DNA from: an uncultured bacterium
GTDB lineage: Bacteria > Patescibacteriota > Minisyncoccia > Phycocordibacterales > Phycocordibacteraceae
Direction of reading: 5' to 3'
NCBI GenBank assembly: GCA_937879955.1
Contig: CALFMK010000001.1
Location: 5,461 to 69,460, forward strand
Length of the DNA: 64,000 bases
Shown piece after piece: positions 325-44,547 of the stretch. The position numbers and the translations under genes are program-made. The notes under the pieces were generated by a model that saw only the letters and a program-made list of their open reading frames with translations, did not search any database and had not been told where the DNA came from. How positions within the stretch are numbered: the stretch's first letter is position 1; every line of letters begins with the position of its first letter.

Positions 325-999
325 TTATCGATTAAGTCGGTAACCCACGCCGCGGACGGTTTCGAAGAGAGGGGCATCTGCATAGGTATCGAGCTTCTTG
401 CGAAGATTCTTCATGTGTACATCAAGCACGTTCGAGAAGCCAGGGAAGTCGAAGCTCCAGACATGGTCGAGGATGCTCTCGCGCGTGAGGGCCTCGTCCG
501 GGTGGCGCATGAAGTACTCGAGGAGCGAGTACTCCTTGAGCGTGAGGGAGAGCGGCTTGCCGCCCTTGGTCACGGTCCGCGCCCCGGAGTCGAGCTCGAT
601 GTCGCGGACGGAGAGCTTCGACGGGAGGCTCTGCTCAGGACGGCGGAGCACCGCGTTGATGCGGGCCACGAGCTCCTCGAACGAGAACGGCTTCGCGAGG
701 TAGTCGTCGGCGCCGGTGTTGAGGAGCTCCACCTTGTACTCGGTCTCGTCGCGGGCCGTGAGGATGATGATCGGGGTCTTCACGCCCTCCTTCCGAGCCT
801 CGCGCGTGATGGTGGCGCCGTCGACGCCCGGGAGCATGAGGTCGAGCAGGATGAGGTCGTACTCGTCCCGGTAGAGGAGGATGCGGGTCTTCGCCTTCTC
901 GCTCTCCGCGATCCAGTCCACGGCGAAGCCCTTCGACTCGAGGCCGCGCTTCAGGCCCTCGGCGAGCTTCGCTTCGTCTTCAACGATGAGTATGCGCAT
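325..999 (-). CDS. OmpR/PhoB-family response regulator (receiver plus winged-helix output).
   Basis: 224 aa. The receiver has the acidic pocket (VEDE...LLDLMLP) and the conserved K (AKPF). The C-terminal Trans_reg_C-like domain ends ...VRGVGYRLNR. Confidence 0.9.
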   Translation of the reverse strand: MRILIVEDEAKLAEGLKRGLESKGFAVDWIAESEKAKTRILLYRDEYDLILLDLMLPGVDGATITREARKEGVKTPIIILTARDETEYKVELLNTGADDYLAKPFSFEELVARINAVLRRPEQSLPSKLSVRDIELDSGARTVTKGGKPLSLTLKEYSLLEYFMRHPDEALTRESILDHVWSFDFPGFSNVLDVHMKNLRKKLDTYADAPLFETVRGVGYRLNR

Positions 1000-1184
1000 G
1001 GGTAGAGGATTTATGGCTAATCGCGTATGGGAAGACTCTATCTATTAGAGCATGAAGCCTTCATGAAGGATGGTTCAGAAAGGAAAAAGACCCGCAGGAG
1101 CGCGGGTCCTCTGAAGGATCAGGAGACGCAGGACGGGATCGCTGGGCGCGACCCCGTCCTGCCGATATTCCTGCGCGGAACGAT

Positions 1185-1600
1185 GCGCACAGGAATCTAT
1201 CGAGGGTGCGAGCCACCTGCCAGAGGCAGACAGCGGTGCCGCTTCCGCTCGGGTGAGGGCACCATACCACATAAAGAAATCCGCCTCACTGATGAGGCGG
1301 ACTGGACAAGGAAAGAGCGGGGAAGCCGGGCGCAGAACGGAAGCTGCTCGCTAGAGGGAGGAACGAGCTTTCTCCATTCTGCGCCGGGCCCGCGCTTGTC
1401 GTCGCTGGCGGGGCTCATTTCGCCGGCGACTGGCGCGTCGTGCCGGAAGATACGAGGGGTACTCCCGGCACGTGCATCCTCCCATAGGCAGGGCGAGCGT
1501 CAAGCGATGCGGGAAGTCGTATCCATTCGCGCACCGCACCACGATTCCCGGGTCCGTCTATGGGTCAAAAAACGGCCTCACGAAAGGCTTTTTCGAAGTT
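1185..1600 (+). promoter_or_regulatory. Candidate structured 5' leader upstream of nrdA, possibly a cobalamin riboswitch, ending in a weak hairpin plus T-run at about 1571-1595.
   Basis: The untranslated region is 770 nt and any ORFs in it are Arg-rich junk. Blocks resembling cobalamin-riboswitch conserved elements appear in the expected order: AGGAATC...GGGTGCGAGCCACCTGCC...GGTGCC...GGCGGACTGG...GGGGAAGCC. I did not fold it or scan it with a covariance model. Confidence 0.3.
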
Positions 1601-1830
1601 GTGTCTTGCCTCTGTCCGGGAACGTTTCGTGCTGGTTTATGCACAAGGAAGATTGGGTGAAGAGCCCGTATCATACGTAGGTCAACGCAGCCGAATGCAG
1701 TCGGAAGGATGCGGCGGGACGCGCTACGGCGCCCCCGAACGCGGTCCGAAGTGGAGCGAAAACCCTGCCAGCGTCCGAAGCCAAGGCTGACTTATAAATG
1801 TGCCGTGTAACCTACGGGATTACCTACCAT

Positions 1831-4719
1831 ATGAAGCAGGTCAAGAAGCGGAACGGGAGCATCGTCGACTTCGAGGCGACGAAGATTACTGACGCATTGC
1901 GAAAATCCTTCGCGTATTGCGAGGTCGCGATAGACGAGGCGGGGCTCGAGACGCTCACCAAGGGCGTCCTTGAGGACCTCTCGGCGAAGTTCGGCGACGA
2001 GGCGACTCCCTCCGTGGAGCATGTACAGGACCTGGTAGAGCTCGCGCTCATGGAGGCGGGCTACCTCACCGTGGCGAAGCACTACATCGTGTACCGCTAC
2101 GAGCATGCGAAGGTCCGCGAGGAGAAGAAGCAGGAGACCCTCGAGAAGATCGAGGAGGAGGGTCTCCTCATCACCACCGCGTCCGGGAAGCAGGAGCGCT
2201 TCAACGAGACCAAGCTCCGCCAGACCCTCGAGCATCTCGCGAAGGAGGACCAGATGGCGGGCATCGACATCGACCACATCCTCTCCCAGCTCAAGTACGA
2301 GCTCTATGAGGGTATGACCACGGCCGAGGTGGGGAAGGCGCTCATCATGGTGGTCCGCTCGATGATCGAGCGCGACCCGGCGTACTCGCGCCTGGCCGCC
2401 CGTCTCCTCCTGAACCGTCTCTACGCCGAGGTCTTCGGCACGGAGTTCGACAGCAAGAACCCGTACGATTCCGTCGAGCGCGTGTTCGAGGCGAACATGA
2501 AGCGGCTTGTGGCGAACGGCGACCTCGACGAGCGCATGGCCGAGTTCGACCTGAAGAAGCTCGCGCGCGCGATGAAGCTCGAGAACGACCAGCTCTTCGA
2601 GTACATGGGCCTCGAGATCATGATCAGCCGCTACTGCATGGAGGACCCGAAGGCCAAGCGCACCCTCGAGATCCCGCAGATGCTCTGGATGCGCGTGGCC
2701 ATGGGCCTCGCCATCGCCGAGAAGCCGGAGGACCGCGAGCGCGTGGCGCTCGAGTTCTACGACGCGCTCTCGAACTTCTACTACACCCCGGGCGGCCGCA
2801 CCCTCTTCCAGGCAGGCGCGAAGAAGGCGCAGCTTTCCAACTGCTTCCTCAACACCGTGCCTGATTCCCTCGAGGGCATCTTCAAGTCCATCTCGGACAA
2901 CGCCCAGTACCTGAAGTGGTCGGGAGGCACCGGCACCGACTGGACCCCGGTCCGCGCGACGGGTTCCTTCATCAAGGGTACCGGCGTGCCTTCCCAGGGC
3001 ATCGTGCCGTTCCTCAAGATCGCGAACGACGTGAACCTCGCCATCAACCGCTCCGGCAAGCGCCGCGGCGCCGGCTGCGTGTACCTCGAGACCTGGCACC
3101 ACGACATCGAGGACTTCCTCGAGCTCCGCAAGAACACCGGAGACGAGCGCCGCCGCACGCACGACATCAACACCGCGAACTGGATCCCGGACCTGTTCAT
3201 GAAGCGGGTGCGCGACAACGGCATGTGGACCCTCTTCAGCCCGAGCGAGGTGCCTGACCTCCACGACCTCTACGGCGCAGCCTTCGAGAAGCGCTACATG
3301 GAGTACGAGGCTATGGCGGACGCGGGCGGCATGGAGCTCTGGAAGCGCATCCCGGCGACCGACCTCTGGAAGAAGATGATCGGCATGCTCTTCGAGACGG
3401 GTCATCCATGGATCACCTGGAAGGACCCGATCAACGTCCGCTCCCCGCAGGATCACGCGGGCGTCGTGCACAACTCGAACCTCTGCACCGAGATCACCCT
3501 CAATACGAACGAGGACGAGACCGCCGTCTGTACGATCGGCTCCCTCAACTTCGCGAAGTTCGTCGTTACCGGCGAGGACGGCGTGGCTCGCTTCGACCAC
3601 GAGCTCGTGGCGCGCTACACGCGCATCGCGATCCGCATGCTCGACAACGTCATCGACCTCAACTTCTATCCGACGGAGGACGCACGTCGCGGCAACACCC
3701 GCCACCGTCCGGTGGGCCTCGGCGTCCGCGGCTACCATGACGCGCTCTACGGCCTGAACATCCAGTTCGACTCGCCTGAGGCGCTCAACTTCGCCGACGA
3801 GAGCATGGAGGTCGTCGCGTACTACGCGATCCTCGGCTCGTCCGAGCTCGCGAAGGAGCGCGGCACCTACTCGACCTACAAGGGATCGAAGTGGGACCGG
3901 GACATCTTCCCGCAGGACACCCTCGACCTCCTCGAGAAGGAGCGCGGCGAGTCCGTGAAGCTGAAGCGCGGCGGCAAGCTCGACTGGACCCCGGTCCGCG
4001 AGCACGTGAAGAAGTACGGCATGCGCAACAGCAACACCATGGCGATCGCGCCGACCGCGTCGACCGCGAACCTCGTCGGCTGCATCCCGTGCGTCGAGCC
4101 GATCTACAAGAACATCTACGTGAAGTCGAACAAGGAAGGGGAGTTCGTCGTCGTGAACAAGTACCTCGTCGAGGACCTCAAGAAGGCGAACCTCTGGAGC
4201 GCCGGCATGCTCAACCGCATCAAGTACGCGGACGGCAGCATCCAGGGCATCATCGAGATTCCGCGCGCGCTCCGCGAGAAGTACAAGGAGGTCTTCGAGA
4301 TCGACGGCAAGTGGCTCGTCGAGGCGGCGGCTCGTCGCGGCAAGTGGATCGACCAGTCCCAATCCCTGAACATCTTCTATAACGGAACCTCCGGAAAGGA
4401 CCTCTCCGACATCTACTTCCTCGCGTGGGAGATGGGCCTCAAGACGACCTATTACCTCCGCACCCTCGGCGCGTCCCAGGTTGAGAAGGCGACCGTCTCG
4501 ACCGTTGAGTACGGCTCGACCCACATCCGCGGAGGATCGACCCTCGCTGAGGTCGCTGCTGCGACCGTCGTAGAGGAGGTGGCCGTCGCGGCCCCGGTTA
4601 TCGAGGAGGTGCCCGCGCTCAGCGTCCCGAGCGGATTCTCGGCTGCGGAATGGCAGGCCAAGATGGCTCGCGTCGCCGCAGGCGAGGAGGCGGGCGTGTG
4701 CGAATCGTGCGAAAGCTAA
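1831..4719 (+). CDS. nrdA: Ribonucleoside-diphosphate reductase alpha subunit (class I, with an N-terminal ATP-cone).
   Basis: The ATP-cone motif VKKRNGSIVDFEATKI is at the N-terminus. The active-site region NLCTEI is present, and the C-terminal Cys pair is present (CESCES). The start was moved to the ATG at 1831 (MKQVKKRNG). The longer ORF in the same frame begins at 1798. Confidence 0.93.
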   Translation: MKQVKKRNGSIVDFEATKITDALRKSFAYCEVAIDEAGLETLTKGVLEDLSAKFGDEATPSVEHVQDLVELALMEAGYLTVAKHYIVYRYEHAKVREEKKQETLEKIEEEGLLITTASGKQERFNETKLRQTLEHLAKEDQMAGIDIDHILSQLKYELYEGMTTAEVGKALIMVVRSMIERDPAYSRLAARLLLNRLYAEVFGTEFDSKNPYDSVERVFEANMKRLVANGDLDERMAEFDLKKLARAMKLENDQLFEYMGLEIMISRYCMEDPKAKRTLEIPQMLWMRVAMGLAIAEKPEDRERVALEFYDALSNFYYTPGGRTLFQAGAKKAQLSNCFLNTVPDSLEGIFKSISDNAQYLKWSGGTGTDWTPVRATGSFIKGTGVPSQGIVPFLKIANDVNLAINRSGKRRGAGCVYLETWHHDIEDFLELRKNTGDERRRTHDINTANWIPDLFMKRVRDNGMWTLFSPSEVPDLHDLYGAAFEKRYMEYEAMADAGGMELWKRIPATDLWKKMIGMLFETGHPWITWKDPINVRSPQDHAGVVHNSNLCTEITLNTNEDETAVCTIGSLNFAKFVVTGEDGVARFDHELVARYTRIAIRMLDNVIDLNFYPTEDARRGNTRHRPVGLGVRGYHDALYGLNIQFDSPEALNFADESMEVVAYYAILGSSELAKERGTYSTYKGSKWDRDIFPQDTLDLLEKERGESVKLKRGGKLDWTPVREHVKKYGMRNSNTMAIAPTASTANLVGCIPCVEPIYKNIYVKSNKEGEFVVVNKYLVEDLKKANLWSAGMLNRIKYADGSIQGIIEIPRALREKYKEVFEIDGKWLVEAAARRGKWIDQSQSLNIFYNGTSGKDLSDIYFLAWEMGLKTTYYLRTLGASQVEKATVSTVEYGSTHIRGGSTLAEVAAATVVEEVAVAAPVIEEVPALSVPSGFSAAEWQAKMARVAAGEEAGVCESCES

Positions 4720-5853: not shown

Positions 5854-5863
5854 ACTAATTCCG

Positions 5864-8257
5864 ATGAAACACGTGGGAAGGCTTCTGGTACTGCTTTTTG
5901 GTGCTTTTATCTTTCCGGGGATGGTCTCTGCAGCCACCTACTACGTTGATGCGACTCTCGGTAATAATTCGAATAACGGCACTGCCGCTAGTACCTCGTG
6001 GCAGACGCTCGCCAAAGTAAACGGCACTACATTCTTGGCTGGCGATAATATCCTCTTTAAGAAGGGAGAGACGTTTACTGGTGTGCTCGTAGCAGGCCAG
6101 AGTGGCACTAATGGGAATCCAATCACGTACGGCTCATATGGGGAGGGTGCGCGCCCAATTATTAATGCCGCTGGAAATAATCATGGATTCGACATCCGGA
6201 CAGGTAAGTCTTATATCAATGTAGCTGGCCTCGAAGTTCGAAACGCGACCTTGAACCAGTTTCTTCTGTTCGCTAATAGTTCGAATATATCGCACGTGTC
6301 CATCCAGGACTCGATAGCTGTAGGGGGAACGAGCGGATTCAATTTACAGGGACCAGGAACGTTTCTAGACATAACAATAAGTAGCAGTACCGCAAGCGGG
6401 TACGCGGGAGGTTCTGCGGTTGGTGTTCGCCTTGGTTCAGGAACCACTTTTGATGGAATTACTCTCGATGGAGTATCGGCGGCTTCTGGAAGTGGGTATC
6501 AGGGCTTCAGTACTGGATCGGGAACCTATTCAAATATTTCGATACTGAACTCATCGTTCACTGGGCATCCATCAAACGGTATTGCGTTTCTGTCTGCAAC
6601 GACGACTAACGTGGTCATTAGGGATACTGTAGCGAGCTTGAATGGAGGAAGTGGGATTTATTTCTTTGGTGTGAAGAGTGGAGTTGAGATTGATAACGTA
6701 ACAGCAAACTCAAATACCCAAAACGGAATAGGATTTGAAGCTGGTGCCATGAATCACATATCAATCGAAGACTCCGAGTTCAACAATAATGGACTTAATG
6801 GAATCGCACTTCTCGGAAGCGGAACCGGAACGTCAACAATCGTTTCTCGGTCGATTGCGTCTGGTAATGATAATGACGGTTTTAATATCTCTGGAAACTG
6901 GCAGAATGTCGTATTCGAGGAAGCGATCGCAAGTGATAATGGTGTAGATGGTATTGGCTCGAACGGAGACGGCTTCAGCTTTCACAACTCGAGCACCGGT
7001 GTAATTAGGAATAGCCAGGCACATAATAATTGGAAGTCAGCCGTAACAAACGTGAATACATCGAGCACGACGGTATATAACAACCTCTTTTCGCATGACA
7101 CCAACGGAACGAATGCCCTCATCACATTCCTAGACAGCGGAAGCCATGCTGCTTACAACAATGTGCTCTATAGCCCTGCACAGGTGGGGTATGGATTGGT
7201 CGCGAATGGTACAACGACACTCATAGCGAGGAATAATATTATTCAAGGTTTTCAGTACGGCGTATCGAAGGGGACGAATGCCTTCTTGGTAGAAGATTAC
7301 AATGACGTTTATGGAGCCAGTACGGCCTCCTACATTGGGCTTACTGGAGGTGTACATTCTATCTCTGTGAATCCAAAGTTTGTCGACGCTGAGGATGATG
7401 ATTTCCGACTACTTCAGTCCTCTCTTGCTATAAATGCAGGTACTACGACGCCCTATGTAACCGATTACCTCGGAAATCCACGCGTCGGCATTCCGGATAT
7501 GGGTGCATATGAGTATCAGGGAATACCTGATATAACAGCACCTTCTATCTACATAATTGCACCAGTGGATCCGGCTACGATATCTGGAACTGTAATTATT
7601 ACCGCATCAGCGACGGATGCTATCGGCGTAGAAGAAGTCGAATTTTTTCTAGATGGAGTATCGCTCGGGGATGATGCATCTGATCCTTATTCATTTTCAT
7701 GGAACTCATCTGCAGTTCCCGATGGCGTATACTCACTTCTCGCAGTTGCACATGATGCTGAAGGGAATTATGCCACCTCCTCTCCTGTCTCCGTCACGGT
7801 CTCGAATGTAATTCAGGAAGCGAGCCATCGCTCTGGTAAGTCCGGTCAGAGTGTCGTACGCACTATCTCTCCGCTCGCAGATTCTGTATTAAATGAAGGA
7901 GAAGCAAAGATATCATCAATAAATCGGCTCATACTCGATAATCGCGCACTTTTTATGCTTGCGCAGGAAAAGGGAATAGTAGTTCCTGAATTCATACTCA
8001 ATATGCTCGATCTCCCTTCGGGCTCGACCATTTCGATATTCTTTAATCGTCCTCTTGCGCTTGGAGCAACTGGCCCAGATGTCACTGCACTCCAGCAGAT
8101 TCTTAAGGATAAGGGCTTCTATGTTTATCAGGAGATAACCGGCTACTACGGACAAGCCACACTACAAGCTGTTGCTGACTACCAGAAGTCACTTGGGCTC
8201 GAATCTCTCGGGTATGTAGGTCCAGCAACAAGGGAAGCCTTGAATGCTGGGATTTGA
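5864..8257 (+). CDS. Exported right-handed beta-helix (pectate-lyase-like repeat) protein with an Ig-like domain and a C-terminal peptidoglycan-binding (PG_binding_1-like) domain.
   Basis: Signal peptide MKHVGRLLVLLFGAFIFPGMVSA. Many parallel beta-helix repeats (NxxGIxxxG, NNNGLNGIAL, SGNDNDGFNISGN...), then an Ig-like segment. The C-terminus reads ...ALGATGPDVTALQQILKDKGFYVYQEITGYYGQATLQAVADYQKSLGL. The gene is about 45% GC in a 66% GC genome. There is no SD. A TATACT sits 7 nt upstream of the ATG. Confidence 0.8.
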   Translation: MKHVGRLLVLLFGAFIFPGMVSAATYYVDATLGNNSNNGTAASTSWQTLAKVNGTTFLAGDNILFKKGETFTGVLVAGQSGTNGNPITYGSYGEGARPIINAAGNNHGFDIRTGKSYINVAGLEVRNATLNQFLLFANSSNISHVSIQDSIAVGGTSGFNLQGPGTFLDITISSSTASGYAGGSAVGVRLGSGTTFDGITLDGVSAASGSGYQGFSTGSGTYSNISILNSSFTGHPSNGIAFLSATTTNVVIRDTVASLNGGSGIYFFGVKSGVEIDNVTANSNTQNGIGFEAGAMNHISIEDSEFNNNGLNGIALLGSGTGTSTIVSRSIASGNDNDGFNISGNWQNVVFEEAIASDNGVDGIGSNGDGFSFHNSSTGVIRNSQAHNNWKSAVTNVNTSSTTVYNNLFSHDTNGTNALITFLDSGSHAAYNNVLYSPAQVGYGLVANGTTTLIARNNIIQGFQYGVSKGTNAFLVEDYNDVYGASTASYIGLTGGVHSISVNPKFVDAEDDDFRLLQSSLAINAGTTTPYVTDYLGNPRVGIPDMGAYEYQGIPDITAPSIYIIAPVDPATISGTVIITASATDAIGVEEVEFFLDGVSLGDDASDPYSFSWNSSAVPDGVYSLLAVAHDAEGNYATSSPVSVTVSNVIQEASHRSGKSGQSVVRTISPLADSVLNEGEAKISSINRLILDNRALFMLAQEKGIVVPEFILNMLDLPSGSTISIFFNRPLALGATGPDVTALQQILKDKGFYVYQEITGYYGQATLQAVADYQKSLGLESLGYVGPATREALNAGI

Positions 8258-8284
8258 ATTCTTCTAGAGGACGGCGATAATAAA

Positions 8285-8500
8285 CTATATATAACGTTTA
8301 ATTATCTCAACACTGCCCAAGGTCAGTATGTCTCTACCGACCACTCCGTTCTTACGGGTACTAATTACTTTAATAGCTTCTCGTTCGAGAAAGTACATTA
8401 CCGCAGTGTTCAGAATTAAATTCCTATCCCTCTCCTCTGTAACTAGTAAATCAATCGTTTCAAGGACATCCTCTGGAATATCAAGATTAATTTTAGACAC
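8285..8500 (-). CDS. Small ribbon-helix-helix (CopG/antitoxin-like) DNA-binding protein, tentative.
   Basis: 71 aa. The N-terminal strand-helix-helix pattern is INLDIPEDVLETIDLLVTEE...RNLILNTAVMYFLERE. It has a GTG start and no SD, and lies in the low-GC island. Confidence 0.35.
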   Translation of the reverse strand: MSKINLDIPEDVLETIDLLVTEERDRNLILNTAVMYFLEREAIKVISTRKNGVVGRDILTLGSVEIIKRYI

Positions 8501-8523
8501 TGTAAATTCTAAAAATTAAAGCT

Positions 8524-9003
8524 CTAGCTGAACTTCAGCATTTTCGTTTCTAAATTTTCCAGCAATATCTGATAACGCGCATCGAGAGGATTTAACTTGT
8601 AACGTATTTGACGTATAACGATTTTGTATAATTTCCCAACTTGCCCTCGCGTTTCTATACGAATACGGAAGGCTGCTGTCATTCCTGTTGGTATCTTGCA
8701 GTAAACTATCGTGCCTAGGGCAACTTGAGTTATGTTCTCTCCTCGGCATGAAATATCAGTTTTTAATATTGAACTCTGAGCCGTTCCTTCAATCTGATAT
8801 ACAAAACCGGTTGGCTTCTTGCCCGAGGCAACCGAAAGAGGAACGTATAGATCTTTCCGAGGAGCAGTTATGTTAATGATAAATATAAAATTCCCGATTA
8901 CGCGGTCAGGTCCATTAGGAATTCGCGTTCTCCTAAGATTCTCTTCAGTGTCTTTAATATCGACCAAGACATCTTTCTCCGGTGGAATGATTGGTTTATC
9001 CAT
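8524..9003 (-). CDS. Hypothetical protein (159 aa) in the low-GC island.
   Basis: An intact ORF immediately upstream of the RHH ORF on the same strand. It has no recognisable motifs and AT-rich codon usage like the island. Confidence 0.4.
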   Translation of the reverse strand: MDKPIIPPEKDVLVDIKDTEENLRRTRIPNGPDRVIGNFIFIINITAPRKDLYVPLSVASGKKPTGFVYQIEGTAQSSILKTDISCRGENITQVALGTIVYCKIPTGMTAAFRIRIETRGQVGKLYKIVIRQIRYKLNPLDARYQILLENLETKMLKFS

Positions 9004-9111
9004 ATAATCAGATAGCTCTTTGTATAAGATCAGTATGGGTTTAGGAATATGAAAAATATCTCAAAATTGCATAAAGTAATTATGGAGACAGTGGCAGAAA
9101 GCTGATCTAGT

Positions 9112-12897: not shown

Positions 12898-14979
12898 CTA
12901 TGCGCGCTCGATAGTAGCGAGAATCTCCTCGATCTCAGCGAGCCCCGCCGGCTTCGTGAGATGGTGGTCGAACCCGGCCTTCCGGGCCTTCTGTATGTCG
13001 GATTCCTGGCCGTAGCCGGTGAGTGCGACGAGCGTCGCGGCGAACCCATCAGCGCGGAGCGCCGTCGCGACCTCGTAGCCCTCCATGTCCGGCAGGCCGA
13101 TGTCGAGCAGGATCACGTCAGGACGGAACGCGGGCGCGCGGGCGATAGCCTCCTCGCCGGTATATGCGGTTTCGGTACGGTTCCCGCGGAGCGTGAGGAG
13201 CTTCGCGAGCGCGTCGGCCGCGGCGCGGTTGTCGTCCACGACGAGGATGCGGAACCCGTCACGCGCCTTTGGCGCTGCTACGGCCCGTGCCCGCACCCCG
13301 ACGGCTCCCTCCTGCGGGAGCGGGATGCGGACGGTGAACCGGCTCCCGTGTCCGGGCCCGTCGCTCTCGGCCTCGATCGTGCCGTCGTGCATCTCCACCA
13401 GGTTCTTGGTAAGCGAGAGGCCGATGCCGAGACCTGCGTGCATCTTGCCGGGCTGCTCGATCTGGAAGAACGGTTCGAAGACGTGCGCAAGGAGCGCGGC
13501 GTCCATGCCGATGCCGGTGTCCGTCACCGTGACGACGGCCTCGGTCCCGTCCGTGCGTGCCACGAGCTCGATACGGCCTCCGGGCTCGGTGTACTTCGCC
13601 GCGTTGTTGAGGAGGTTCACGAACACCTGCTCGAGACGCACGGGATCGGCCTCGAGGCGGATCGCCTCGTCCGGCATGTCGATCGAGAGCTCGTGCTTGA
13701 GGGACGCCATGAGCGGCGCCACGGTACGCTGGCTCCTTGCGAGCACGGTCTGGAGGTCGATGTGCTCCTTCTGGAGGGAGAGCTTCTCGCGGGTGATGCG
13801 CGAGATGTCGAGCAGGTCGTCGAGGAGATGCCGCATGGTCTTCAGGTGGTCGGTCATGCCTTCGGCGAGCTCGCTCGAGCGAGCGGCATCCGGCCGCTCG
13901 AGCTTCATGATCTCGAGCGAGGACATGAGCGGGGCGAGCGGGTTGCGCAGCTCGTGCGCGAGGGTGGCGATGAAGCGGCTCTTCGCCTCGTCCTCACGGC
14001 GGATCCGCTCCACGGCGTCCTCGAGCCTGCGCACGTTGTCGCGCAGGACGTTCGCGGTGTCCTTGCGCTCCTCCGCGATGGAGACGAGCACGAGGAATAT
14101 GAGGGAGAGCACGATCACGAATATCTCGGTCTGCAGGAGGTCGTATCCGAGCGTCCCTGTACCGGACGCGAGGCTGAGGAACGCGGTGCCGCCGAGCGCG
14201 AGCGCGGCGTTCAGGAAGAGCGCGAGCGTCATGAAGCGCGGGCCGATGCGCAGCGCGATCCAGAGGAACGGGATGAGGATAAGGTATACGAGCGGCACCT
14301 GCGCGATCTCGCGGTATGGGGTCCAGTACAGGAGGAGGCCGGTCCCGACGACGGCCGCTATCGCGACCCAGGCCTCGACGAGCTCGCCCTTCGTGCGCTG
14401 GAACCTGAAGCGCGGCAGCCACTTGATGAGGAGCGGCGTCACGACGAGCATGGAGAGGATGTGCCCGATCCACCACGGGATGAAGGTACCCATGAGGCCG
14501 CGGGGCATGGCGCGCTCGGCCAGGGTGAAGGTGAGGGTTCCGAGCGCCGGGATGAGGATGGTGACGAAGAGCGCGACGAACACGAACATGAGGGTGTCGG
14601 GAGCCTTCGAGAAGGTGTTGCGGTATCCGAGCTTCCGGAGGAGCCAGGTGCCCACGCTTGCCTGTATGGCGTTCGCCGCCGCAAGCCCGAGCGCCACGAA
14701 CAGCACGCTCCCGTTCAGGAGCTGGTGCGCGAGAGCTGCCAGGAATACCGCAGGCCAGAGCGCGATGCCGCCGAGGAGGAGTCCGCCGAGCGCGATGCCG
14801 GATGCCGGCCAGATGAGGGCCGGGGCGGTCGGGACGGAGGAATAGATATGCGAGAAGACCTGGGCGCAGAACAGGTACGCGCAGAACAGCAGCGCCATGT
14901 AGAGGAGCGACCGTCCGGAATAGGGGAAGCGAGGCATAGACGGGTGGATGGCGTTCTCCCTAGGATACATTCTTTTCAT
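12898..14979 (-). CDS. Hybrid sensor histidine kinase: N-terminal polytopic MASE1-like membrane domain, then HisKA, HATPase and a C-terminal receiver.
   Basis: About 8 TM helices (IWPASGIALGGLLLGG...). The H-box is ATLAHELRNPLAP. The N, G1 and G2 boxes are present (DTGIGM..., GLGIGLSL). The C-terminal receiver reads ILVVDDN...DVILLDIGLPDMEG. Confidence 0.9.
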   Translation of the reverse strand: MKRMYPRENAIHPSMPRFPYSGRSLLYMALLFCAYLFCAQVFSHIYSSVPTAPALIWPASGIALGGLLLGGIALWPAVFLAALAHQLLNGSVLFVALGLAAANAIQASVGTWLLRKLGYRNTFSKAPDTLMFVFVALFVTILIPALGTLTFTLAERAMPRGLMGTFIPWWIGHILSMLVVTPLLIKWLPRFRFQRTKGELVEAWVAIAAVVGTGLLLYWTPYREIAQVPLVYLILIPFLWIALRIGPRFMTLALFLNAALALGGTAFLSLASGTGTLGYDLLQTEIFVIVLSLIFLVLVSIAEERKDTANVLRDNVRRLEDAVERIRREDEAKSRFIATLAHELRNPLAPLMSSLEIMKLERPDAARSSELAEGMTDHLKTMRHLLDDLLDISRITREKLSLQKEHIDLQTVLARSQRTVAPLMASLKHELSIDMPDEAIRLEADPVRLEQVFVNLLNNAAKYTEPGGRIELVARTDGTEAVVTVTDTGIGMDAALLAHVFEPFFQIEQPGKMHAGLGIGLSLTKNLVEMHDGTIEAESDGPGHGSRFTVRIPLPQEGAVGVRARAVAAPKARDGFRILVVDDNRAAADALAKLLTLRGNRTETAYTGEEAIARAPAFRPDVILLDIGLPDMEGYEVATALRADGFAATLVALTGYGQESDIQKARKAGFDHHLTKPAGLAEIEEILATIERA

Positions 14980-15044
14980 GAAGCCTACATGAAAGGCCCG
15001 CGCCTTGCTACGGAGCCGTGCTTCGCCGTACTATGGGCTCCACT

Positions 15045-15455
15045 ATGACAGCAAAAGGAAAGTACGTACCCGGCGAGTGGACGCTCGCCGTGAAGCGGTC
15101 GAGCGCCGGCCTCGGCCTGTTCGCGGGCGAGCGCATCCCGAAGGGCGCCTGCGTCATCGAGTATGTCGGACGCACGGTATCGAAGGAGGAGAGCGAGACG
15201 AGCAAGAGCAAGTACCTCTTCGAGATCTCGAAGAACAAGACCATCGACGGGAAGCCGAAGATAAACAAGGCGGGGTACATCAACCATGCCTGCAATCCGA
15301 ACTGCGAGACGGAGATAGCGAAAGGCCGCATCTTCGTGATGGCGATCAAGGACATAAAGCCCGGAGACGAACTCACCTACGACTACGGGAAGGAGTACTG
15401 CCTCGAGCACTGCGTCCCGTGCCGCTGCAGCGCGAAGAAGCACCTGTACGGATAG
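15045..15455 (+). CDS. SET-domain protein (putative protein-lysine methyltransferase).
   Basis: The GxG region is SAGLGLFAGERIPKGACVIEYVG. The NHxCxPN motif is INHACNPNC. The ELxxDY motif is DELTYDYG, and a Cys-rich tail follows (CVPCRCSAKKH). The longest ORF begins at 15018. The start was moved to the ATG at 15045, which sits 10 nt downstream of a TACTAT box. Other candidate starts are 15018 and 15033. Confidence 0.78.
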   Translation: MTAKGKYVPGEWTLAVKRSSAGLGLFAGERIPKGACVIEYVGRTVSKEESETSKSKYLFEISKNKTIDGKPKINKAGYINHACNPNCETEIAKGRIFVMAIKDIKPGDELTYDYGKEYCLEHCVPCRCSAKKHLYG

Positions 15456-15516
15456 GTGCCGCGCATGAGGAACCCGCGCTTCGCGTGAAGCGCGGGTTCC
15501 GTGCTAGCGTACTCCC

Positions 15517-15741
15517 ATGTACGTGAAAGCGAGAGTACAGGCCGGTGCGAAGGCCGAGTCCCTCCGGCAGGTCTCTGATACGCATTTCGCGATAGCGGTC
15601 AGGGAGAAGGCGGAGCGGAACGAGGCGAACCTGCGGGTGATCGCGCTTGTCGCCGGCCACTTCGGCGTTCCTGCGGGGAAGGTGCGGATCGTGAACGGGC
15701 ATCGAAGCCCGTCGAAGCTCCTCTCCGTCGATACGGACTAG
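15517..15741 (+). CDS. DUF167/YggU-family small protein.
   Basis: 74 aa. The pattern V.A...EKAERNEANLRVIALVAGHFGVPAGKVRIVNGHRSPSKLL matches the YggU family. Confidence 0.65.
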   Translation: MYVKARVQAGAKAESLRQVSDTHFAIAVREKAERNEANLRVIALVAGHFGVPAGKVRIVNGHRSPSKLLSVDTD

Positions 15742-16963: not shown

Positions 16964-17067
16964 AGATATGATTTAGGTGTGCTCACACGATACTACGAAA
17001 TAAGGGAAAAAGCTCGGTGGGGGATATGAAAAAGGCGAGGACGTTCTGTCCTCGCCCTCTGCCAGCG

Positions 17068-17451
17068 TCAGGTGCTGGGATACTGAACCACGATGCGGTC
17101 GGCGTAGATGTCGATGACGGTCGCCGCGCAGACATTCACGCCCATCTTGGTGAGCACCTTGCCGCCGTTGAACTCGACCTTGATGTCGTACCGGCAGGCG
17201 CCGGAGCCGTCGTCGATATTGGCGATCTTCTGCCGGCCAGCGAACAGGACCGTACCGCCGAGCATGTCTTCCTGCCAGCTGTCCACGCCGACCCGCGAGG
17301 CATAGAACCTCCAGACCGAGACCTGCGCGTGGTTATGCAGCGCCACCTCACGGTCCCTGGCGCCGTCGGATTGGGCCAGGGCGGGCTGGGCGGACAAGGC
17401 AACGGCCGCCAGGATGGCGGCAGCGGATACGAATCGTTGGAACGCTCGCAT
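17068..17451 (-). CDS. Exported hypothetical protein.
   Basis: Signal peptide (AAILAAVALSAQPALAQS) followed by a 100-aa domain. No motifs recognised. Confidence 0.55.
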   Translation of the reverse strand: MRAFQRFVSAAAILAAVALSAQPALAQSDGARDREVALHNHAQVSVWRFYASRVGVDSWQEDMLGGTVLFAGRQKIANIDDGSGACRYDIKVEFNGGKVLTKMGVNVCAATVIDIYADRIVVQYPST

Positions 17452-17564
17452 GATATTCCCTCCTTGGAATATGAAAGATCAATGAAACAACCGTGGGAAT
17501 GTAACACACGTTATAGTGCCTGTCATCAGAAAACCGCCGGGTCCAGGGACCCGGCGGGGAAGTT

Positions 17565-41758: not shown

Positions 41759-42766
41759 TCATATAGGGGCGGAAAGTGCGTAGTCTCCGGTCCTCGTGGT
41801 GCGAAGCGCGCTGAGGCCGTGGCTGTGATAGAGCGCCCTCCATTCGGCATACTCCGCCGCGCTCAGTCCCGGATACTTTGCCAGGACGTAGGGAAGCGGG
41901 ATGCCGCCCTTCTCGACGAGCAGGACGATCACCGCCTTGCGGCGTATGACCCATCGCGTGTCCTGCGCTTCGGACGGGAGGTCCTCGGCGCAGATCTTCA
42001 TTCCCAGGGGGCCCGTGATCGTCTTCTTCGGGTCGAAGCAGACCGTCGGGTTCGCGCTCGGATCGAGCCTGAGCTCGCCGAAGTAGTAGCCGCGGCCCCA
42101 GACGGTCCTGAGCGGAGGGTTACCCGGGAAGAACGCCCCGAGAGCCTTCCGCATCCTGCACGCATGCACGTCGATTATCTTCGGATCGACATGCGTGCCT
42201 TCCTCGTGCCTCGCATCCAGCAGCATCTGCCGCGTATGGATGATCCCGGACTTCGAGATGAGGGTCGTGAGCAGGCGGGCCTCGTCAGGGGTGATGCGCG
42301 CGCGCTGGCCCCCGATGAAGACCTCGTCGAGCCCGTTGATGACGATCGGAACGCCTTCGTGCACGGACTCGAGCTTGGTCGCGACGGATTGCAGCTCGGC
42401 TCCGTCTTCAAGCGCGAGCATGTAGCCCCTCCTGGGATGCGTGCTGATGACCTGCCTTGCGGCGGGGTGGCACGCGGCGAGCCGCATGCGGATATGGTGG
42501 ATATGGGTGTCGATCACCTTATCGAGCGGAGGATGCTCCTTGTTGCCGTCGATGACGCGCTTGAGGCTCGCCTTCGACTGCAGATGGCCACGCCGATCCA
42601 TCATGTAGAGGAAGAGCTTCTGCTCCGAAGGCGTGAACTTGGCGGAGATCTCGTTTACTGAGACCTGGCCGCTCGAGGCGATCTTGAACACCAGCTCTCC
42701 GTACGTAAGCTGGATAGGGTCTCGCTGGGGAGCCGCGTGGGTTCCCGTACGTTCGACGACGCTCAT
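41759..42766 (-). CDS. Receiver-less transcription regulator with two tandem CtrA/OmpR-type winged-helix DNA-binding domains fused to a C-terminal DUF1153-like HTH domain.
   Basis: Domain 1 contains ...DKVIDTHIHHIRMRL...VISTHPRRGYML. Domain 2 contains ...DPKIIDVHACRMRKALG...LRTVWGRGYYF, which closely matches the CtrA recognition helix/wing ([13 protein letters not shown]...[10 protein letters not shown]). The C-terminus DTRWVIRRKAVIVLLVEKGGIPLPYVLAKYPGLSAAEYAEWRALYHSHGLSALRTTR matches the DUF1153 pattern. The start was set at the ATG with an AGGAG SD 9 nt upstream. The ORF-track TTG at 42820 lies inside the promoter/5'UTR. Confidence 0.75.
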   Translation of the reverse strand: MSVVERTGTHAAPQRDPIQLTYGELVFKIASSGQVSVNEISAKFTPSEQKLFLYMMDRRGHLQSKASLKRVIDGNKEHPPLDKVIDTHIHHIRMRLAACHPAARQVISTHPRRGYMLALEDGAELQSVATKLESVHEGVPIVINGLDEVFIGGQRARITPDEARLLTTLISKSGIIHTRQMLLDARHEEGTHVDPKIIDVHACRMRKALGAFFPGNPPLRTVWGRGYYFGELRLDPSANPTVCFDPKKTITGPLGMKICAEDLPSEAQDTRWVIRRKAVIVLLVEKGGIPLPYVLAKYPGLSAAEYAEWRALYHSHGLSALRTTRTGDYALSAPI

Positions 42767-42808
42767 GTACTTGCTCCTAGATACCTTGGTTTCAACGAAT
42801 CCAGAGCC

Positions 42809-42837
42809 AGTAAATGACAAGAAGGAGGCCGTGTCAA
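42809..42837 (-). promoter_or_regulatory. Sigma70-type promoter of the double-wHTH/DUF1153 gene.
   Basis: On the minus strand, TTGACA, a 17-nt spacer, then TTTACT. This sits about 45 nt upstream of the SD/ATG. Confidence 0.45.
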
Positions 42838-42912: not shown

Positions 42913-43683
42913 TCAGGCCATCGGCGCCGGACTCGGGGCGCCGGAGCCGTTCGTGAAGGCCGGTCTCGCGGCCTCGGCGATCGGAAGATCTTCTGCCATC
43001 ACGCGCTCGTTCGGGTCGCGCAGCACGTAGCCGCGGCCCCAGACGGTCTCGATGTGGTGCCTGCCGCTGTTACCGGAAGCGAGCTTCCTGCGCAGCTTGC
43101 AGACGAACACGTCCACGATCTTGAGTTCCGGCTCGTCCATGCCGCCGTACAGGTGGTTCAGGAACATCTCCTTGGTGAGGGTGGTGCCCTTGCGCAAGGA
43201 GAGGAGCTCCAGTATCTGGTACTCCTTGCCGGTCAGGTGCACGTGCTTCCCGCCGATCTCGACGGTCTTCGCGTCGAGGTTCACGACGATCTCGCCGGTC
43301 TTGATGACCGACTGGGCATGACCCCGCGAGCGCCGCACGATCGCGTGGATGCGCGCGATCATCTCGTCCTTGTGGAACGGCTTGGTCATGTAGTCGTCGG
43401 CGCCGCCCGCGAAGGTCTTCACCTTCATGTCGATCTCGGCGGATCGCGCCAGGATCATGATCGGCGTGTTGACCTTCGCGACCCTGATGGTGCGAAGCAC
43501 GTCGATCGCTGACATGTCGAGCAGGTCGAGACTGAGTACGATCATGTCGTAGTCATATATCTTTGCCAGATCGACGCCCTCCTCGCCCAGGTCGGTCACG
43601 TAGACGTTGAAGCCTTCCGACTTCAGCATCAGCTCGATCGTCTGGGCGGTAGCGCTGTCGTCTTCGATCAGGAGAATACGCAC
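42913..43683 (-). CDS. CtrA-family response regulator paralog with the phospho-acceptor Asp replaced by Ser, plus a C-terminal extension.
   Basis: 256 aa. [28 protein letters not shown]...[20 protein letters not shown]...[53 protein letters not shown]...[17 protein letters not shown] matches CtrA along its whole length. The receiver position that aligns with CtrA D51 is Ser ([16 protein letters not shown]). It has a GTG start with a GAGGAG SD. Confidence 0.88.
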
Positions 43684-43851: not shown

Positions 43852-44547
43852 CTACGCCGCGGATACCATCTCGTTCTCGTCGCGCAGCACGTAGCCGCGG
43901 CCCCAGACGGTATCGATGTGATGCTTGCCGCCGTTGCCCGAGCCGAGCTTCTTGCGAAGCTTGCAGATAAAGACGTCCACGATCTTGATCTCGGGAACAT
44001 CGATGCCGCCGTACAGGTGATTCAAGAACATCTCCTTGGAAAGGGCGGTGCCCTTGCGTAGCGACAGGAGCTCGAGCATCTGGTACTCCTTGCCGGTCAG
44101 GTGCACGCGCGTGCCGCCGACCTCGACGGTCTTCATGTCGAGGTTCACGACGATCTCGCCGGTCTTGATGACCGAATGAACGAGACCCTTCGAGCGCCGT
44201 ACGATCGCATAGATGCGAGCCACGAGCTCGTCCTTATGGAACGGCTTGGTCATGTAGTCGTCGGCGCCGAGGTTCAGCGCCTTCACCTTCGTCTCGATGC
44301 GGGTGTCGCCGGTCGAGATCATGACGAGCGTCTCGATCTTCTCGGCGCGGAGCGTCCGGAGAACGTCGAGGCCGTACATGTCAGGCAGGTTAAGGTCGAG
44401 CAGGATCAGGTCGTAGTCGTAGGACCTCGCGAGATCGAGACCCTCCTCGCCCAGGTCGGTCGTCTGGACGCTGAAACCTTCCGACATCAGCATCAGCTCC
44501 ACCGTTTGGGCAGTGGCGCCGTCATCTTCGATCTGGAGAACGCGCAT
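43852..44547 (-). CDS. ctrA: CtrA-family response regulator (canonical receiver with phospho-Asp).
   Basis: 231 aa. [25 protein letters not shown]...[24 protein letters not shown]...[20 protein letters not shown]...[53 protein letters not shown]...[17 protein letters not shown]. The AGGAGG SD sits 8 nt upstream. The start was trimmed from the longer ORF. Confidence 0.88.

What the first reader, a model, noticed from the sequence alone, without database searches (positions are those of the whole stretch)
15045..15455. Bacterial SET-domain protein
The complete SET signature is present: GxG, NHxCxPN and ELxxDY, plus a Cys-rich post-SET-like tail. The ORF is 136-145 aa. SET-domain methyltransferases are uncommon in bacteria and are often host-targeting effectors or nucleoid-protein modifiers. 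This one sits between a hybrid histidine kinase and a YggU-family gene.
Basis: seen in the sequence. Interest (0 to 1): 0.6.

Follow-up and report, generated by a model that had tools for sequence, protein, structure and literature searches.

The report
Small bacterial SET-domain lysine methyltransferase
This is an intact 136-residue SET-domain protein lysine methyltransferase gene in a candidate-phyla-radiation (Parcubacteria-type) bacterium; it belongs to a widespread family of small bacterial SET enzymes that databases already label, so the find is solid but fairly ordinary, and its substrate is unknown.

Summary
ORF 15045-15455 (+) encodes a 136-aa protein that matches Pfam SET over the whole profile (E=2e-24). 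It carries GxG, NHxCxPN and ELxYDY motifs and a Cys/His-rich post-SET tail. Its best solved relatives are KMT2/MLL, NSD and SET1 SET domains (E~1e-16), and an AlphaFold model matches MLL1, G9a and vSET.

The gene looks native: GC3 is 0.875, dN/dS is about 0.1, and it is the most conserved gene in its neighbourhood. The host is a 62% GC Patescibacteria genome. Hundreds of 50-99% identical homologues exist in Patescibacteria metagenomes, and 52-64% identical ones occur in Hyphomonadaceae/Caulobacterales, so the family is not rare.

No neighbouring gene is conserved across phyla. There are lineage-specific links: a SWIB gene directly upstream in a sister Patescibacteria clade, a topoisomerase (with a SWIB domain or a polybasic tail) next to three betaproteobacterial relatives, and polybasic tails on roughly 18-28% of homologues. 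These favour an endogenous DNA-associated substrate over a host-targeting effector role, but nothing here tests that.

The post-SET motif is CxCx4H rather than the canonical CxCx4C.

Verdict: a new member of a known kind, of modest interest.

The parts
15045..15455 (+). Coding sequence of the 136-aa SET plus post-SET protein lysine methyltransferase (15.1 kDa, pI 9.0), stop codon included
   Evidence: Pfam SET E=2e-24 over the full profile. PDB hits to KMT2D, KMT2C, NSD2, SET1 and MLL1 at E about 1e-16. GC3 0.875 and dN/dS 0.09-0.12. The start codon is conserved across 7 genomes.
15108..15116 (+). GxG motif (G22-L23-G24), the SAM-binding motif I of SET domains
   Evidence: G22 and G24 are invariant in alignments A1 and A3. 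The motif aligns to GLGL of KMT2D.
15282..15302 (+). NHxCxPN motif (N80-H81-A82-C83-N84-P85-N86), one strand of the pseudoknot. C83 is the expected SET-core zinc ligand of the post-SET cluster.
   Evidence: N80, H81 and N86 are invariant and C83 and P85 nearly invariant. The motif aligns to YINHSCAPNC of KMT2D. Model pLDDT for residues 81-90 is 84.
15369..15386 (+). ELxYDY motif (E109-L-T-Y112-D-Y114). Y114 is the catalytic or lysine-channel Tyr. Y112 sits at the Phe/Tyr-switch position.
   Evidence: Y112 and Y114 are invariant. All 185 homologues (of 200 scanned) in which the ELxYDY-type motif was found have Tyr at the switch position. The motif aligns to ELTYDY of KMT2D. Model pLDDT for residues 101-110 is 93.
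15399..15443 (+). Post-SET-like Cys/His tail C119-L-E-H122-C123-V-P-C126-R-C128-S-A-K-K-H133. The motif is CxCx4H, with His where canonical post-SET domains have the third Cys.
   Evidence: C126 and C128 are invariant. Among 200 homologues the tail is CxCx2C in 92, CxCx4H in 85, CxCx2H in 7 and CxCx4C in 1. The HMMER alignment to KMT2D extends into ..IPCHCGA.
15005..15034 (+). Putative sigma-70-type promoter of the SET gene: -35 TTGCTA (15005-15010), 18-nt spacer, -10 TACTAT (15029-15034). It predicts a leaderless or near-leaderless mRNA that starts a few nt before ATG 15045.
   Evidence: Both hexamers are conserved blocks in 7 genomes whose flanking bases vary (alignment A2). No Shine-Dalgarno sequence precedes 15045. 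The strict consensus scan did not call it, so this is an inference from conservation.
14975..14993 (.). Conserved 15-19 nt box TTCATGAAGCCTACATGAA (CATGAA-N5-CATGAA, 11-bp period) in the divergent HK/SET control region. It is a putative response-regulator operator.
   Evidence: The 15-mer is invariant in 7 genomes. A second copy lies at 1053-1067, upstream of the OmpR-type response regulator gene 325-999 (0.23 matches expected by chance). Its function is inferred and was not tested.
15469..15500 (+). Perfect 14-bp GC-rich hairpin (loop GCGT) starting 14 nt after the SET stop codon. It is a likely transcript-end or stabilising hairpin without a U-tract.
   Evidence: Fold energy is -40.9 kcal/mol for 15450-15520, z=-5.1. 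The sequence is unique in the window. The terminator scan did not call it because no T-run follows.

Best explanation
The gene encodes a native, functional, stand-alone SET-domain enzyme that transfers methyl groups from S-adenosylmethionine to the epsilon-amino group of a protein lysine. The 136-residue protein is close to the minimal catalytic unit. It has SET-N with GxG, a very short SET-I insert, SET-C with the NHxCxPN/ELxYDY pseudoknot, and a post-SET zinc knuckle. I infer the knuckle ligands to be C83, C126, C128 and H133. Tyr at the Phe/Tyr-switch position (Y112) predicts a mono- or di-methylating enzyme rather than a tri-methylating one. The protein has no signal peptide and no secretion-related neighbours, so it most likely acts inside the bacterium. 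The most likely substrate is an abundant basic DNA-associated protein (a nucleoid or SWIB-type protein), by analogy with cpnSET acting on Hc1 and Go1-SET acting on MC1-alpha. Transcription probably starts from a conserved promoter as a leaderless mRNA. That promoter shares a roughly 100-bp divergent control region, containing a putative response-regulator box, with a MASE1 hybrid histidine kinase gene. What is shown: domain identity, motif integrity, purifying selection, distribution and gene contexts. What is inferred: catalytic activity, zinc ligands, product specificity, intracellular action, substrate class and regulation.
For: Domain and motifs: Pfam SET E=2e-24 over the full profile. PDB phmmer hits to KMT2D, KMT2C, NSD2 and SET1 at E=1e-16 to 1e-15, with GLGL, IEYxG, YINHxCxPNC, ELTYDY and PCxC aligned. 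All catalytic motif residues are invariant in 44 and 33 homologues.

Fold: AF2 model with pLDDT 72, rising to 84-93 over the knot motifs. Foldseek top hits are MLL1, G9a, MLL3 and vSET at probability 1.00 and TM 0.6-0.7.

Native gene under selection: GC3 0.875, and dN/dS 0.12 against L001. There is 1 nonsynonymous and 3 synonymous changes against a strain with 95.6% nucleotide identity. The SET protein is 84% identical to its L001 orthologue, against 78%, 69% and 68% for the flanking GH18, VanY and HK genes. Local GC equals the genome background.

Nucleic-acid link in relatives: a SWIB gene (PF02201, E about 1e-30) lies 43-105 bp upstream on the same strand in L056, L067 and L071, and within 2.5 kb in L063, L070 and L093. 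A type IA topoisomerase, with a SWIB domain or a Lys/Ala-rich tail, is the divergent neighbour of all three betaproteobacterial relatives. Polybasic low-complexity tails occur on 22 of 78 genome-derived homologues and 39 of 213 library homologues.

Precedents: cpnSET methylates Hc1 and Go1-SET methylates MC1-alpha (PMC3980110). A SWIB-only protein binds all along the Waddlia genome, and a SET/SWIB/TopoI-SWIB trio is noted in Chlamydiae (PMC6426960).

Not an effector, defence or phage gene: no PADLOC hit and only a weak PHROG hit. The LegAS4 equivalog model scores 33.8 bits against a cutoff of 550.
Against: No activity, cofactor binding or substrate was tested. The window's own protein has no polybasic tail. 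No SWIB gene lies within the 64-kb window. No neighbour is conserved across phyla, so the nucleoid link rests on relatives that are only 37-57% identical. SET enzymes also methylate non-chromatin proteins, for example Rubisco LSMT and yeast ribosomal-protein KMTs (established knowledge). The model is only moderate overall (pLDDT 72), and the SET-I region falls below 60. The promoter and box are inferred from conservation alone, and the consensus scan found no promoter.
Confidence: 0.55

Rival explanations
1. The enzyme is an intracellular lysine methyltransferase, but its substrate is not chromatin-like. Candidates are ribosomal proteins, translation factors, or a signalling protein such as the adjacent hybrid kinase or its response regulator.
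For: In this genome the SET gene has no DNA-related neighbour or fused tail. Polybasic tails in relatives would serve ribosome or RNA targeting as well as DNA targeting. A MASE1 hybrid HK is the adjacent divergent gene in three separate Patescibacteria lineages: the window clade, L067/L071 and L101. SET-family enzymes with ribosomal and other non-histone substrates are well known (established knowledge).
Against: The SWIB and topoisomerase neighbourhoods in relatives point to DNA. Both characterised prokaryotic SET enzymes with endogenous substrates act on DNA-binding proteins (PMC3980110). HK adjacency can be explained by a shared control region or by inherited synteny.
Confidence: 0.28
2. 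It is an exported effector (nucleomodulin-like) that the episymbiotic CPR cell delivers to its host to methylate host histones or other host proteins, as NUE, RomA/LegAS4, BtSET and BaSET do.
For: CPR bacteria are generally host-dependent (established knowledge). The closest solved relatives are eukaryotic H3K4 and H3K36 methyltransferases. All functionally studied bacterial SET proteins from pathogens are secreted effectors (PMC3980110; PMC10117894).
Against: The protein has no signal peptide or N-terminal extension, and homologues start at the same Met. There are no secretion genes nearby. Purifying selection is very strong, and vertical synteny near VanY and RNR is conserved across the clade. 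Orthologues at 52-64% identity sit on 3.7-4.6 Mb chromosomes of Hyphomonadaceae/Caulobacterales-type (Terricaulis) Alphaproteobacteria, lineages not known to depend on a host, next to housekeeping genes that look like glmU and rpiA by sequence inspection. The LegAS4 equivalog model fails.
Confidence: 0.12
3. It is a catalytically dead or purely structural SET-fold protein, for example a reader or scaffold, because the post-SET zinc site is non-canonical.
For: His replaces the third post-SET Cys. The SET-I region is very short and modelled with low confidence.
Against: Every residue known to be needed for SAM binding and catalysis is invariant across the family. CxCx4H, CxCx2C and CxCx2H all keep a metal-ligating residue at the third position. 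vSET is active with no post-SET at all (established knowledge; vSET appears among the fold hits).
Confidence: 0.04

Closest known systems
Eukaryotic KMT2/MLL, SET1 and NSD catalytic SET plus post-SET modules
   Same: These are the best sequence and fold matches (E=1e-16; Foldseek probability 1.00; about 30-32% identity). They share GLGL, IEYxG, YINHxCxPNC, ELTYDY and a PCxC post-SET start, with Tyr at the Phe/Tyr switch as in MLL1.
   Different: This protein is a single 136-aa domain with no N-SET, WIN, PHD or AWS modules. Its SET-I insert is about 8 residues shorter (gaps in the alignment). Its post-SET motif is CxCx4H rather than CxCx4C. It is encoded in a histone-less CPR bacterium.
Go1-SET (Methanosarcina mazei) and cpnSET (Chlamydophila pneumoniae): prokaryotic SET enzymes with endogenous chromatin-protein substrates
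   Same: They are small prokaryotic SET proteins reported to methylate the cell's own DNA-binding proteins, MC1-alpha and Hc1 (PMC3980110). This is the mode of action proposed here. The SET/SWIB/topoisomerase association noted for Chlamydiae (PMC6426960) recurs around relatives of this gene.
   Different: No MC1 or Hc1 homologue was identified in the window. The substrate here is unknown.
Secreted bacterial SET effectors: NUE, RomA/LegAS4, BtSET, BaSET
   Same: They share the SET catalytic core. The NCBIfam LegAS4 model gives a partial hit over the SET region (E=1.6e-8). Betaproteobacterial relatives at 37% identity carry the canonical post-SET motif.
   Different: This protein has no secretion signal, no ankyrin or other accessory domains, and no T3SS or T4SS context. 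The LegAS4 model scores 33.8 bits against a cutoff of 550. The gene is strongly conserved and vertically inherited, not a fast-evolving accessory gene.
vSET (Paramecium bursaria chlorella virus 1), the minimal 119-aa SET enzyme
   Same: It has a comparable minimal size and a short SET-I, and it appears among the fold hits (3kma, TM 0.63 on the query and 0.80 on the target).
   Different: vSET lacks a post-SET zinc knuckle and works as a dimer (established knowledge). This protein keeps a Cys/His post-SET tail.

Membership tests
SET domain superfamily (Pfam PF00856), protein lysine methyltransferases | Match to the SET profile HMM above the curated gathering threshold | tested here: met
   86.5 bits against a cutoff of 22.4, E=2e-24, covering profile positions 1-105 of 105.
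SET domain superfamily (Pfam PF00856), protein lysine methyltransferases | Conserved SAM-binding and catalytic motifs: GxG, (E)YxG, NHxCxPN and ELxF/YDY with the catalytic Tyr | tested here: met
   G22-L-G24, E39-Y40-V-G42, N80-H-A-C-N-P-N86 and E109-L-T-Y-D-Y114 are present. They are invariant or nearly invariant in the family and align residue for residue to KMT2D and KMT2C.
SET domain superfamily (Pfam PF00856), protein lysine methyltransferases | Beta-rich SET fold with the C-terminal pseudoknot that brings NHxCxPN and ELxYDY together | tested here: inconclusive
   The AF2 model (pLDDT 72, rising to 84-93 over both motifs) matches MLL1, G9a, MLL3 and vSET at TM 0.6-0.7 and probability 1.00.
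SET domain superfamily (Pfam PF00856), protein lysine methyltransferases | SAM-dependent methyl transfer to protein lysine | not testable with these tools
   This needs a biochemical assay.
Post-SET zinc-binding module (CxCx4C plus the Cys of NHxC) | Three C-terminal Cys with spacing CxCx4C that complete a Zn(Cys)4 site with the SET-core Cys | tested here: not met
   The tail is C126-x-C128-x4-H133, so the third ligand is His. The SET-core C83 is present. Across 200 homologues the counts are CxCx2C 92, CxCx4H 85, CxCx2H 7 and CxCx4C 1. A ligand-competent residue is always kept, so the tail probably works like a post-SET module, but it is a variant. Metal binding was not tested.
KMT2/SET1 (Trithorax/COMPASS) family | SET domain embedded in a large multidomain protein with N-SET and WIN motifs, dependent on the WRAD complex | tested here: not met
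   The whole protein is 136 aa with SET as the only domain. Identity to MLL1, MLL3 and MLL4 SET domains is about 29-34%.
Dot/Icm effector AnkI/LegAS4 (NCBIfam NF043024) and related secreted SET nucleomodulins | Equivalog-level match, accessory domains (ankyrin), a secretion signal and a secretion system | tested here: not met
   33.8 bits against a cutoff of 550, with only the SET region matching. There is no N-terminal extension and there are no secretion genes among the neighbours.
Prokaryotic endogenous chromatin-protein SET methyltransferases (Go1-SET and cpnSET type) | Methylates the organism's own DNA-binding or nucleoid protein | not testable with these tools
   Only contextual support exists: SWIB and topoisomerase neighbours and polybasic tails in relatives. 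None of these is present in this window.

The most novel reading that the evidence does not exclude
The SET enzyme could be the writer of an endogenous, signal-controlled lysine-methylation system for nucleoid proteins in Patescibacteria. The other components would be the SWIB protein encoded directly upstream in sister clades and the recurrently adjacent MASE1 hybrid kinase, with an OmpR-type regulator acting through the conserved CATGAA-N5-CATGAA box. That would amount to a bacterial 'chromatin mark' pathway retained in ultra-small genomes and exchanged horizontally with Hyphomonadaceae/Caulobacterales.
Probability: 0.15. Interest if true: 0.65.

Novelty: new member of a known kind. Interest (0 to 1): 0.3.

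Why it matters
Bacterial SET enzymes have been studied almost only as secreted effectors of pathogens. Their role in non-pathogenic bacteria is largely unknown. A SET gene that is retained under strong purifying selection in a CPR lineage, whose genomes are typically very small, argues for a housekeeping role. So do its links in relatives to SWIB, topoisomerase and polybasic tails. Identifying the substrate would show whether lysine methylation of nucleoid proteins is a general bacterial mechanism. It would also bear on the proposal (Aravind et al., cited in PMC3980110) that SET enzymes were already chromatin-related in prokaryotes before eukaryotes acquired them. As it stands, the finding adds a well-supported family member and a CxCx4H post-SET variant, not a new kind of system.

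Tried and rejected
1. Operon partner: I looked for a conserved operon partner across 163 related loci by ORF clustering. None is conserved across phyla. GH18, VanY and YggT adjacency is clade-level synteny only.

2. YggU/DUF167 link: rejected. In relatives (L003, L006-L008, L011) the DUF167 gene lies 1.4-1.9 kb downstream of SET, and an M23-like peptidase gene and/or a YggT gene follows SET in several relatives. The window lineage appears to have lost them (inference).

3. Phage, defence or mobile origin: rejected. PADLOC gave no hit, PHROGs gave one weak hit (E=9e-5), and local GC matches the genome background.

4. Antisense ORFs 14985-15443 and 15008-15376 (minus strand): rejected as shadows of a high-GC gene, because GC3 marks the + frame.

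5. Longer start codons (GTG 15018, ATG 15033): rejected. They overlap the conserved -10 element and are not conserved in frame.

6. Literature: no paper in the library links SET domains with Patescibacteria, Parcubacteria or CPR.

7. Exact-sequence lookup of the window protein: not on record. A near-identical strain was found instead.

8. Rfam search around the gene and the hairpin: nothing significant.

9. Zinc-site and knot geometry: could not be checked because model coordinates are not exposed.

10. The first greedy ORF picking missed the SWIB genes because longer antisense ORFs masked them. tblastn and Pfam corrected this.

Full report
**Observation.** The window holds an ORF on the + strand that ends at TAG 15453-15455. 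Possible starts are GTG 15018, ATG 15033 and ATG 15045. From ATG 15045 the product is 136 aa: MTAKGKYVPGEWTLAVKRSSAGLGLFAGERIPKGACVIEYVGRTVSKEESETSKSKYLFEISKNKTIDGKPKINKAGYINHACNPNCETEIAKGRIFVMAIKDIKPGDELTYDYGKEYCLEHCVPCRCSAKKHLYG.

- Pfam SET (PF00856) matches the whole 105-position profile with 86.5 bits (cutoff 22.4), E=2e-24. The related PRDM2_PR model also passes its cutoff.
- GC at codon positions 1/2/3 is 0.49/0.42/0.875. This identifies the coding frame in a 62% GC genome and explains the long antisense ORFs as shadows.

**Start codon and expression signals.** I aligned the region upstream of the gene with six related genomes whose SET proteins are about 70-99% identical. Three blocks are conserved in an otherwise variable spacer.

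- An invariant 15-mer, TGAAGCCTACATGAA, lies at 14979-14993.
- A -35-like cTTGCt lies at 15004-15010.
- A -10-like CCGTA(C/G)TAT lies at 15026-15034, separated from the -35 by an 18-nt spacer.
- The conserved ATG follows about 10 nt after the -10 element, with no Shine-Dalgarno sequence. I therefore infer a leaderless or near-leaderless mRNA that starts at 15045.
- The upstream in-frame ATG and GTG overlap the -10 element and are not conserved in frame.
- The strict consensus scan did not call this promoter, so it rests on conservation only.
- A perfect 14-bp GC hairpin (15469-15500) starts 14 nt after the stop codon. It folds at -40.9 kcal/mol with z=-5.1 and is unique in the window. No T-run follows it.

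**What the protein is.** The best solved relatives are KMT2D, KMT2C, NSD2, yeast SET1, MLL1, NSD1, NSD3 and ASH1L SET domains (E=1.6e-16 to 1e-12).

- The alignments pair GLGL, IEYxG, YxF, YINHxCxPNC, G(D/E)ELTYDY and the PCxC start of the post-SET.
- The only sizeable gaps are in the SET-I insert, which is about 8 residues shorter here.
- An AlphaFold2 model built from 44 homologues has mean pLDDT 72 and pTM 0.67. Confidence is high over the two knot-forming motifs (84 for residues 81-90, 93 for 101-110) and low over SET-I.
- Foldseek against the PDB returns MLL1, G9a, MLL3, MLL4, COMPASS and vSET at probability 1.00 and TM 0.6-0.7.

**Post-SET tail.** Canonical post-SET modules use CxCx4C plus the Cys of NHxC to bind one zinc ion (established knowledge).

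- Here the spacing is kept, but the third ligand is His: C126-R-C128-S-A-K-K-H133.
- Among 200 homologues the tail is CxCx2C in 92, CxCx4H in 85, CxCx2H in 7 and canonical CxCx4C in one betaproteobacterial relative; in the other 15 the ELxYDY anchor used for the scan was not found.
- A ligand-competent residue is always retained, so I infer a Cys3His (or Cys4) zinc knuckle. This is a variant of the module, not its loss.
- The residue at the Phe/Tyr-switch position (fourth residue of ELxYDY) is Tyr in every homologue where the motif was found. By the known switch rule this predicts mono- or di-methylation.

**Organism and distribution.** The named homologues are from Patescibacteria, Parcubacteria and Paceibacterota MAGs. 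They are 132-172 aa long and 65-99% identical. The search returned 1970 hits.

- The window itself carries typical CPR-style housekeeping genes and two tRNAs.
- A scan of one genome per GTDB species found 126 relatives. They fall in Paceibacterota, Adlerbacteria, Nomurabacteria, Kaiserbacteria and Minisyncoccia at 53-84% identity. They also occur in Alphaproteobacteria at 52-64% identity: Hyphomonadaceae, Terricaulis, Vitreimonas, Caulobacterales, and a few Rhizobium, Azorhizobium and Methyloceanibacter MAGs. Some of these alphaproteobacterial copies sit on 3.7-4.6 Mb chromosomes. Three Betaproteobacteria have relatives at 37% identity.
- An exhaustive phmmer search of 1.84 billion representatives gave 9404 clusters at E<=1e-3, 1224 at E<=1e-10 and 17 at E<=1e-30.
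- A 2014 review already listed more than 500 bacterial genomes with SET genes (PMC3980110).
- The family is therefore not rare, and its members already carry automatic 'SET domain-containing protein' labels. No paper in the searchable library discusses SET domains in CPR bacteria.

**Native and constrained.** Local GC matches the genome background, unlike a 41-47% GC island at about 5.9-9.1 kb.

- Against L001 the SET protein is 84% identical, while the flanking GH18, VanY and kinase genes are 78%, 69% and 68% identical. dN/dS is 0.12.
- Against a strain with 95.6% nucleotide identity the gene has 3 synonymous and 1 nonsynonymous change.
- The chromosomal neighbourhood (RNR ... GH18 - VanY - [kinase] - SET) is kept across the clade, which indicates vertical inheritance.

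**Gene context.** No neighbour is conserved across phyla. The gene is a stand-alone unit.

- The YggU/DUF167 adjacency is specific to this lineage. In relatives DUF167 lies 1.4-1.9 kb downstream of SET, and an M23-like peptidase gene and/or a YggT gene follows SET in several of them.
- In a second Patescibacteria clade (SET about 53-57% identical) a SWIB/MDM2 gene (PF02201, E about 1e-30) lies 43-105 bp upstream on the same strand in L056, L067 and L071. It lies within 2.5 kb in L063, L070 and L093.
- In all three betaproteobacterial relatives the divergent neighbour is a type IA topoisomerase. It ends in a SWIB domain in L080 and a Lys/Ala-rich tail in L078. This reproduces the SET/SWIB/TopoI-SWIB trio noted for Chlamydiae, where a SWIB-only protein binds all along the genome (PMC6426960).
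- 22 of 78 genome-derived homologues and 39 of 213 library homologues carry Lys/Arg/Ala-rich low-complexity C-terminal tails. A few carry such tails at the N-terminus. Tandem SET-SET proteins occur, and by sequence inspection one protein looks like a SET-acetyltransferase (GNAT-like) fusion.
- A full-length MASE1 hybrid kinase is the adjacent divergent gene in the window clade. It is also adjacent in L067, L071 and L101, whose SET proteins are only 52-53% identical to this one.

**Mechanism.** I commit to the following model. The protein is a catalytically competent SAM-dependent protein-lysine methyltransferase (probability about 0.9). It has no signal peptide, no N-terminal extension and no secretion context, so it acts inside the cell. 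The most likely substrate class is an abundant basic DNA-associated protein (probability about 0.4-0.45).

- The substrate inference rests on the SWIB and topoisomerase neighbourhoods, on the polybasic tails of relatives, and on the precedents of cpnSET with Hc1 and Go1-SET with MC1-alpha (PMC3980110).
- The main rival is a non-chromatin endogenous substrate, such as ribosomal, translation or signalling proteins (about 0.28).
- A secreted host-targeting effector is unlikely (about 0.12). The gene is under strong purifying selection, shows vertical synteny, has orthologues in alphaproteobacterial lineages not known to be host-dependent, and fails the LegAS4 equivalog model at 33.8 bits against a cutoff of 550.
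- A catalytically dead protein is very unlikely, because every catalytic residue is invariant.

**Comparison with known families.**

- It is a member of the SET superfamily. The HMM and motif tests are met and the fold match is consistent.
- It works like a KMT2/NSD-type SET plus post-SET module but is not a KMT2 family member. It is a single domain at about 30% identity, with a short SET-I.
- It does not meet the strict CxCx4C definition of post-SET.
- It is not a LegAS4/NUE-type effector.
- Functionally it most resembles Go1-SET and cpnSET. Membership in that functional class cannot be tested here.

**Verdict.** This is a real, intact, native SET-domain lysine methyltransferase. It is a new member of a known kind with a minor post-SET variant. 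Interest is modest at 0.3. It would rise if the SWIB, kinase and nucleoid connection were shown experimentally.

Noticed in passing
window 14975-14993 and 1049-1067: A conserved box, CATGAA-N5-CATGAA (15-mer TGAAGCCTNCATGAA), occurs twice in the window. One copy lies between the hybrid histidine kinase and SET genes and is invariant in 7 genomes. The other lies 54-68 nt upstream of the OmpR-type response regulator gene 325-999 (minus strand). Both have the same orientation relative to the kinase and regulator genes. It is probably the regulator's operator and ties that regulator to the MASE1 hybrid kinase. It also implies that the kinase's true start is the ATG at 14937 (Met15 of the longest ORF) rather than 14979. 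Chance expectation is 0.23 matches per window.
   Followed up: partly
window 1070-1797: An ORF-free stretch of about 730 nt lies between the response regulator gene and the ribonucleotide reductase large-subunit gene (1798-4719). It folds far better than shuffled sequence (-333 kcal/mol, z=-7.4 on 20 shuffles). It has no Rfam match and no phage match. It may be an undescribed structured leader or non-coding RNA upstream of the RNR gene.
   Followed up: partly
window 5860-9100 (also 63000-64000): A low-GC island (41-47% against a 62% background) encodes a 797-aa protein with a hydrophobic, signal-like N-terminus and right-handed beta-helix, Big_7 and PG_binding_1 domains (5864-8257), plus a 159-aa orphan (8524-9003, minus strand). 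The PG-binding end resembles phage endolysins. This is probably horizontally acquired cell-wall-targeting equipment. The last 1 kb of the window is also 46% GC.
   Followed up: partly
L056 2570-2830; L067 5712-5954; L071 3232-3474; L063, L070, L093; L078 3016-5823; L080 1858-4842: A sister Patescibacteria clade has a SWIB-SET gene pair on the same strand. Betaproteobacterial SET relatives have a divergent type IA topoisomerase that ends in a SWIB domain or a Lys/Ala-rich tail. This is the same SET/SWIB/Topo-SWIB trio described for Chlamydiae.
   Followed up: yes
homologues P0125, P0136, P0156, P0157, P0176, L024-L065 and others; P0121, P0126, P0139, P0166; P0198; L069 5111-5701 and 5950-6402: Many small bacterial SET proteins carry histone-H1-like Lys/Ala/Arg-rich tails. 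Some are tandem SET-SET proteins. By sequence inspection one (P0198) looks like a SET-acetyltransferase (GNAT-like) fusion; I did not check this with Pfam. One locus (L069) has two divergent SET paralogues.
   Followed up: partly
loci L014-L073 (alphaproteobacterial) compared with the Patescibacteria loci: In a neighbour-joining tree without support values, rooted on the betaproteobacterial sequences, the Hyphomonadaceae/Caulobacterales SET clade and a few stray proteobacterial sequences nest inside Patescibacteria diversity. This suggests horizontal transfer between CPR bacteria and Alphaproteobacteria.
   Followed up: partly
window 15469-15500: A perfect 14-bp GC-rich hairpin with no U-tract lies between SET and DUF167. 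It sits where relatives carry extra genes (an M23-like peptidase gene and/or a YggT gene). It may be a U-tract-less terminator or may mark the deletion scar.
   Followed up: partly
window 17016-17527: A 512-bp segment carrying a 127-aa gene with a signal-peptide-like N-terminus (17068-17451, minus strand) is absent from a strain with 95.6% nucleotide identity (L081). This is a strain-level indel with native-like codon composition.
   Followed up: partly
L018 3808-6423: In an Adlerbacteria MAG the SET gene overlaps by 4 nt the end of an RNase T/GIY-YIG exonuclease gene, which itself follows a LexA-like S24 peptidase gene on the same strand. This is a DNA-damage-type context for a SET orthologue.
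   Followed up: no
window 41759-42820 (minus strand): A 353-aa protein combines Trans_reg_C winged-helix matches (2 stretches) with a C-terminal DUF1153 domain and has no receiver domain. It sits next to two OmpR-type response regulator genes (42913-43683 and 43852-44829), which is an unusual regulator cluster for a small genome.
   Followed up: no
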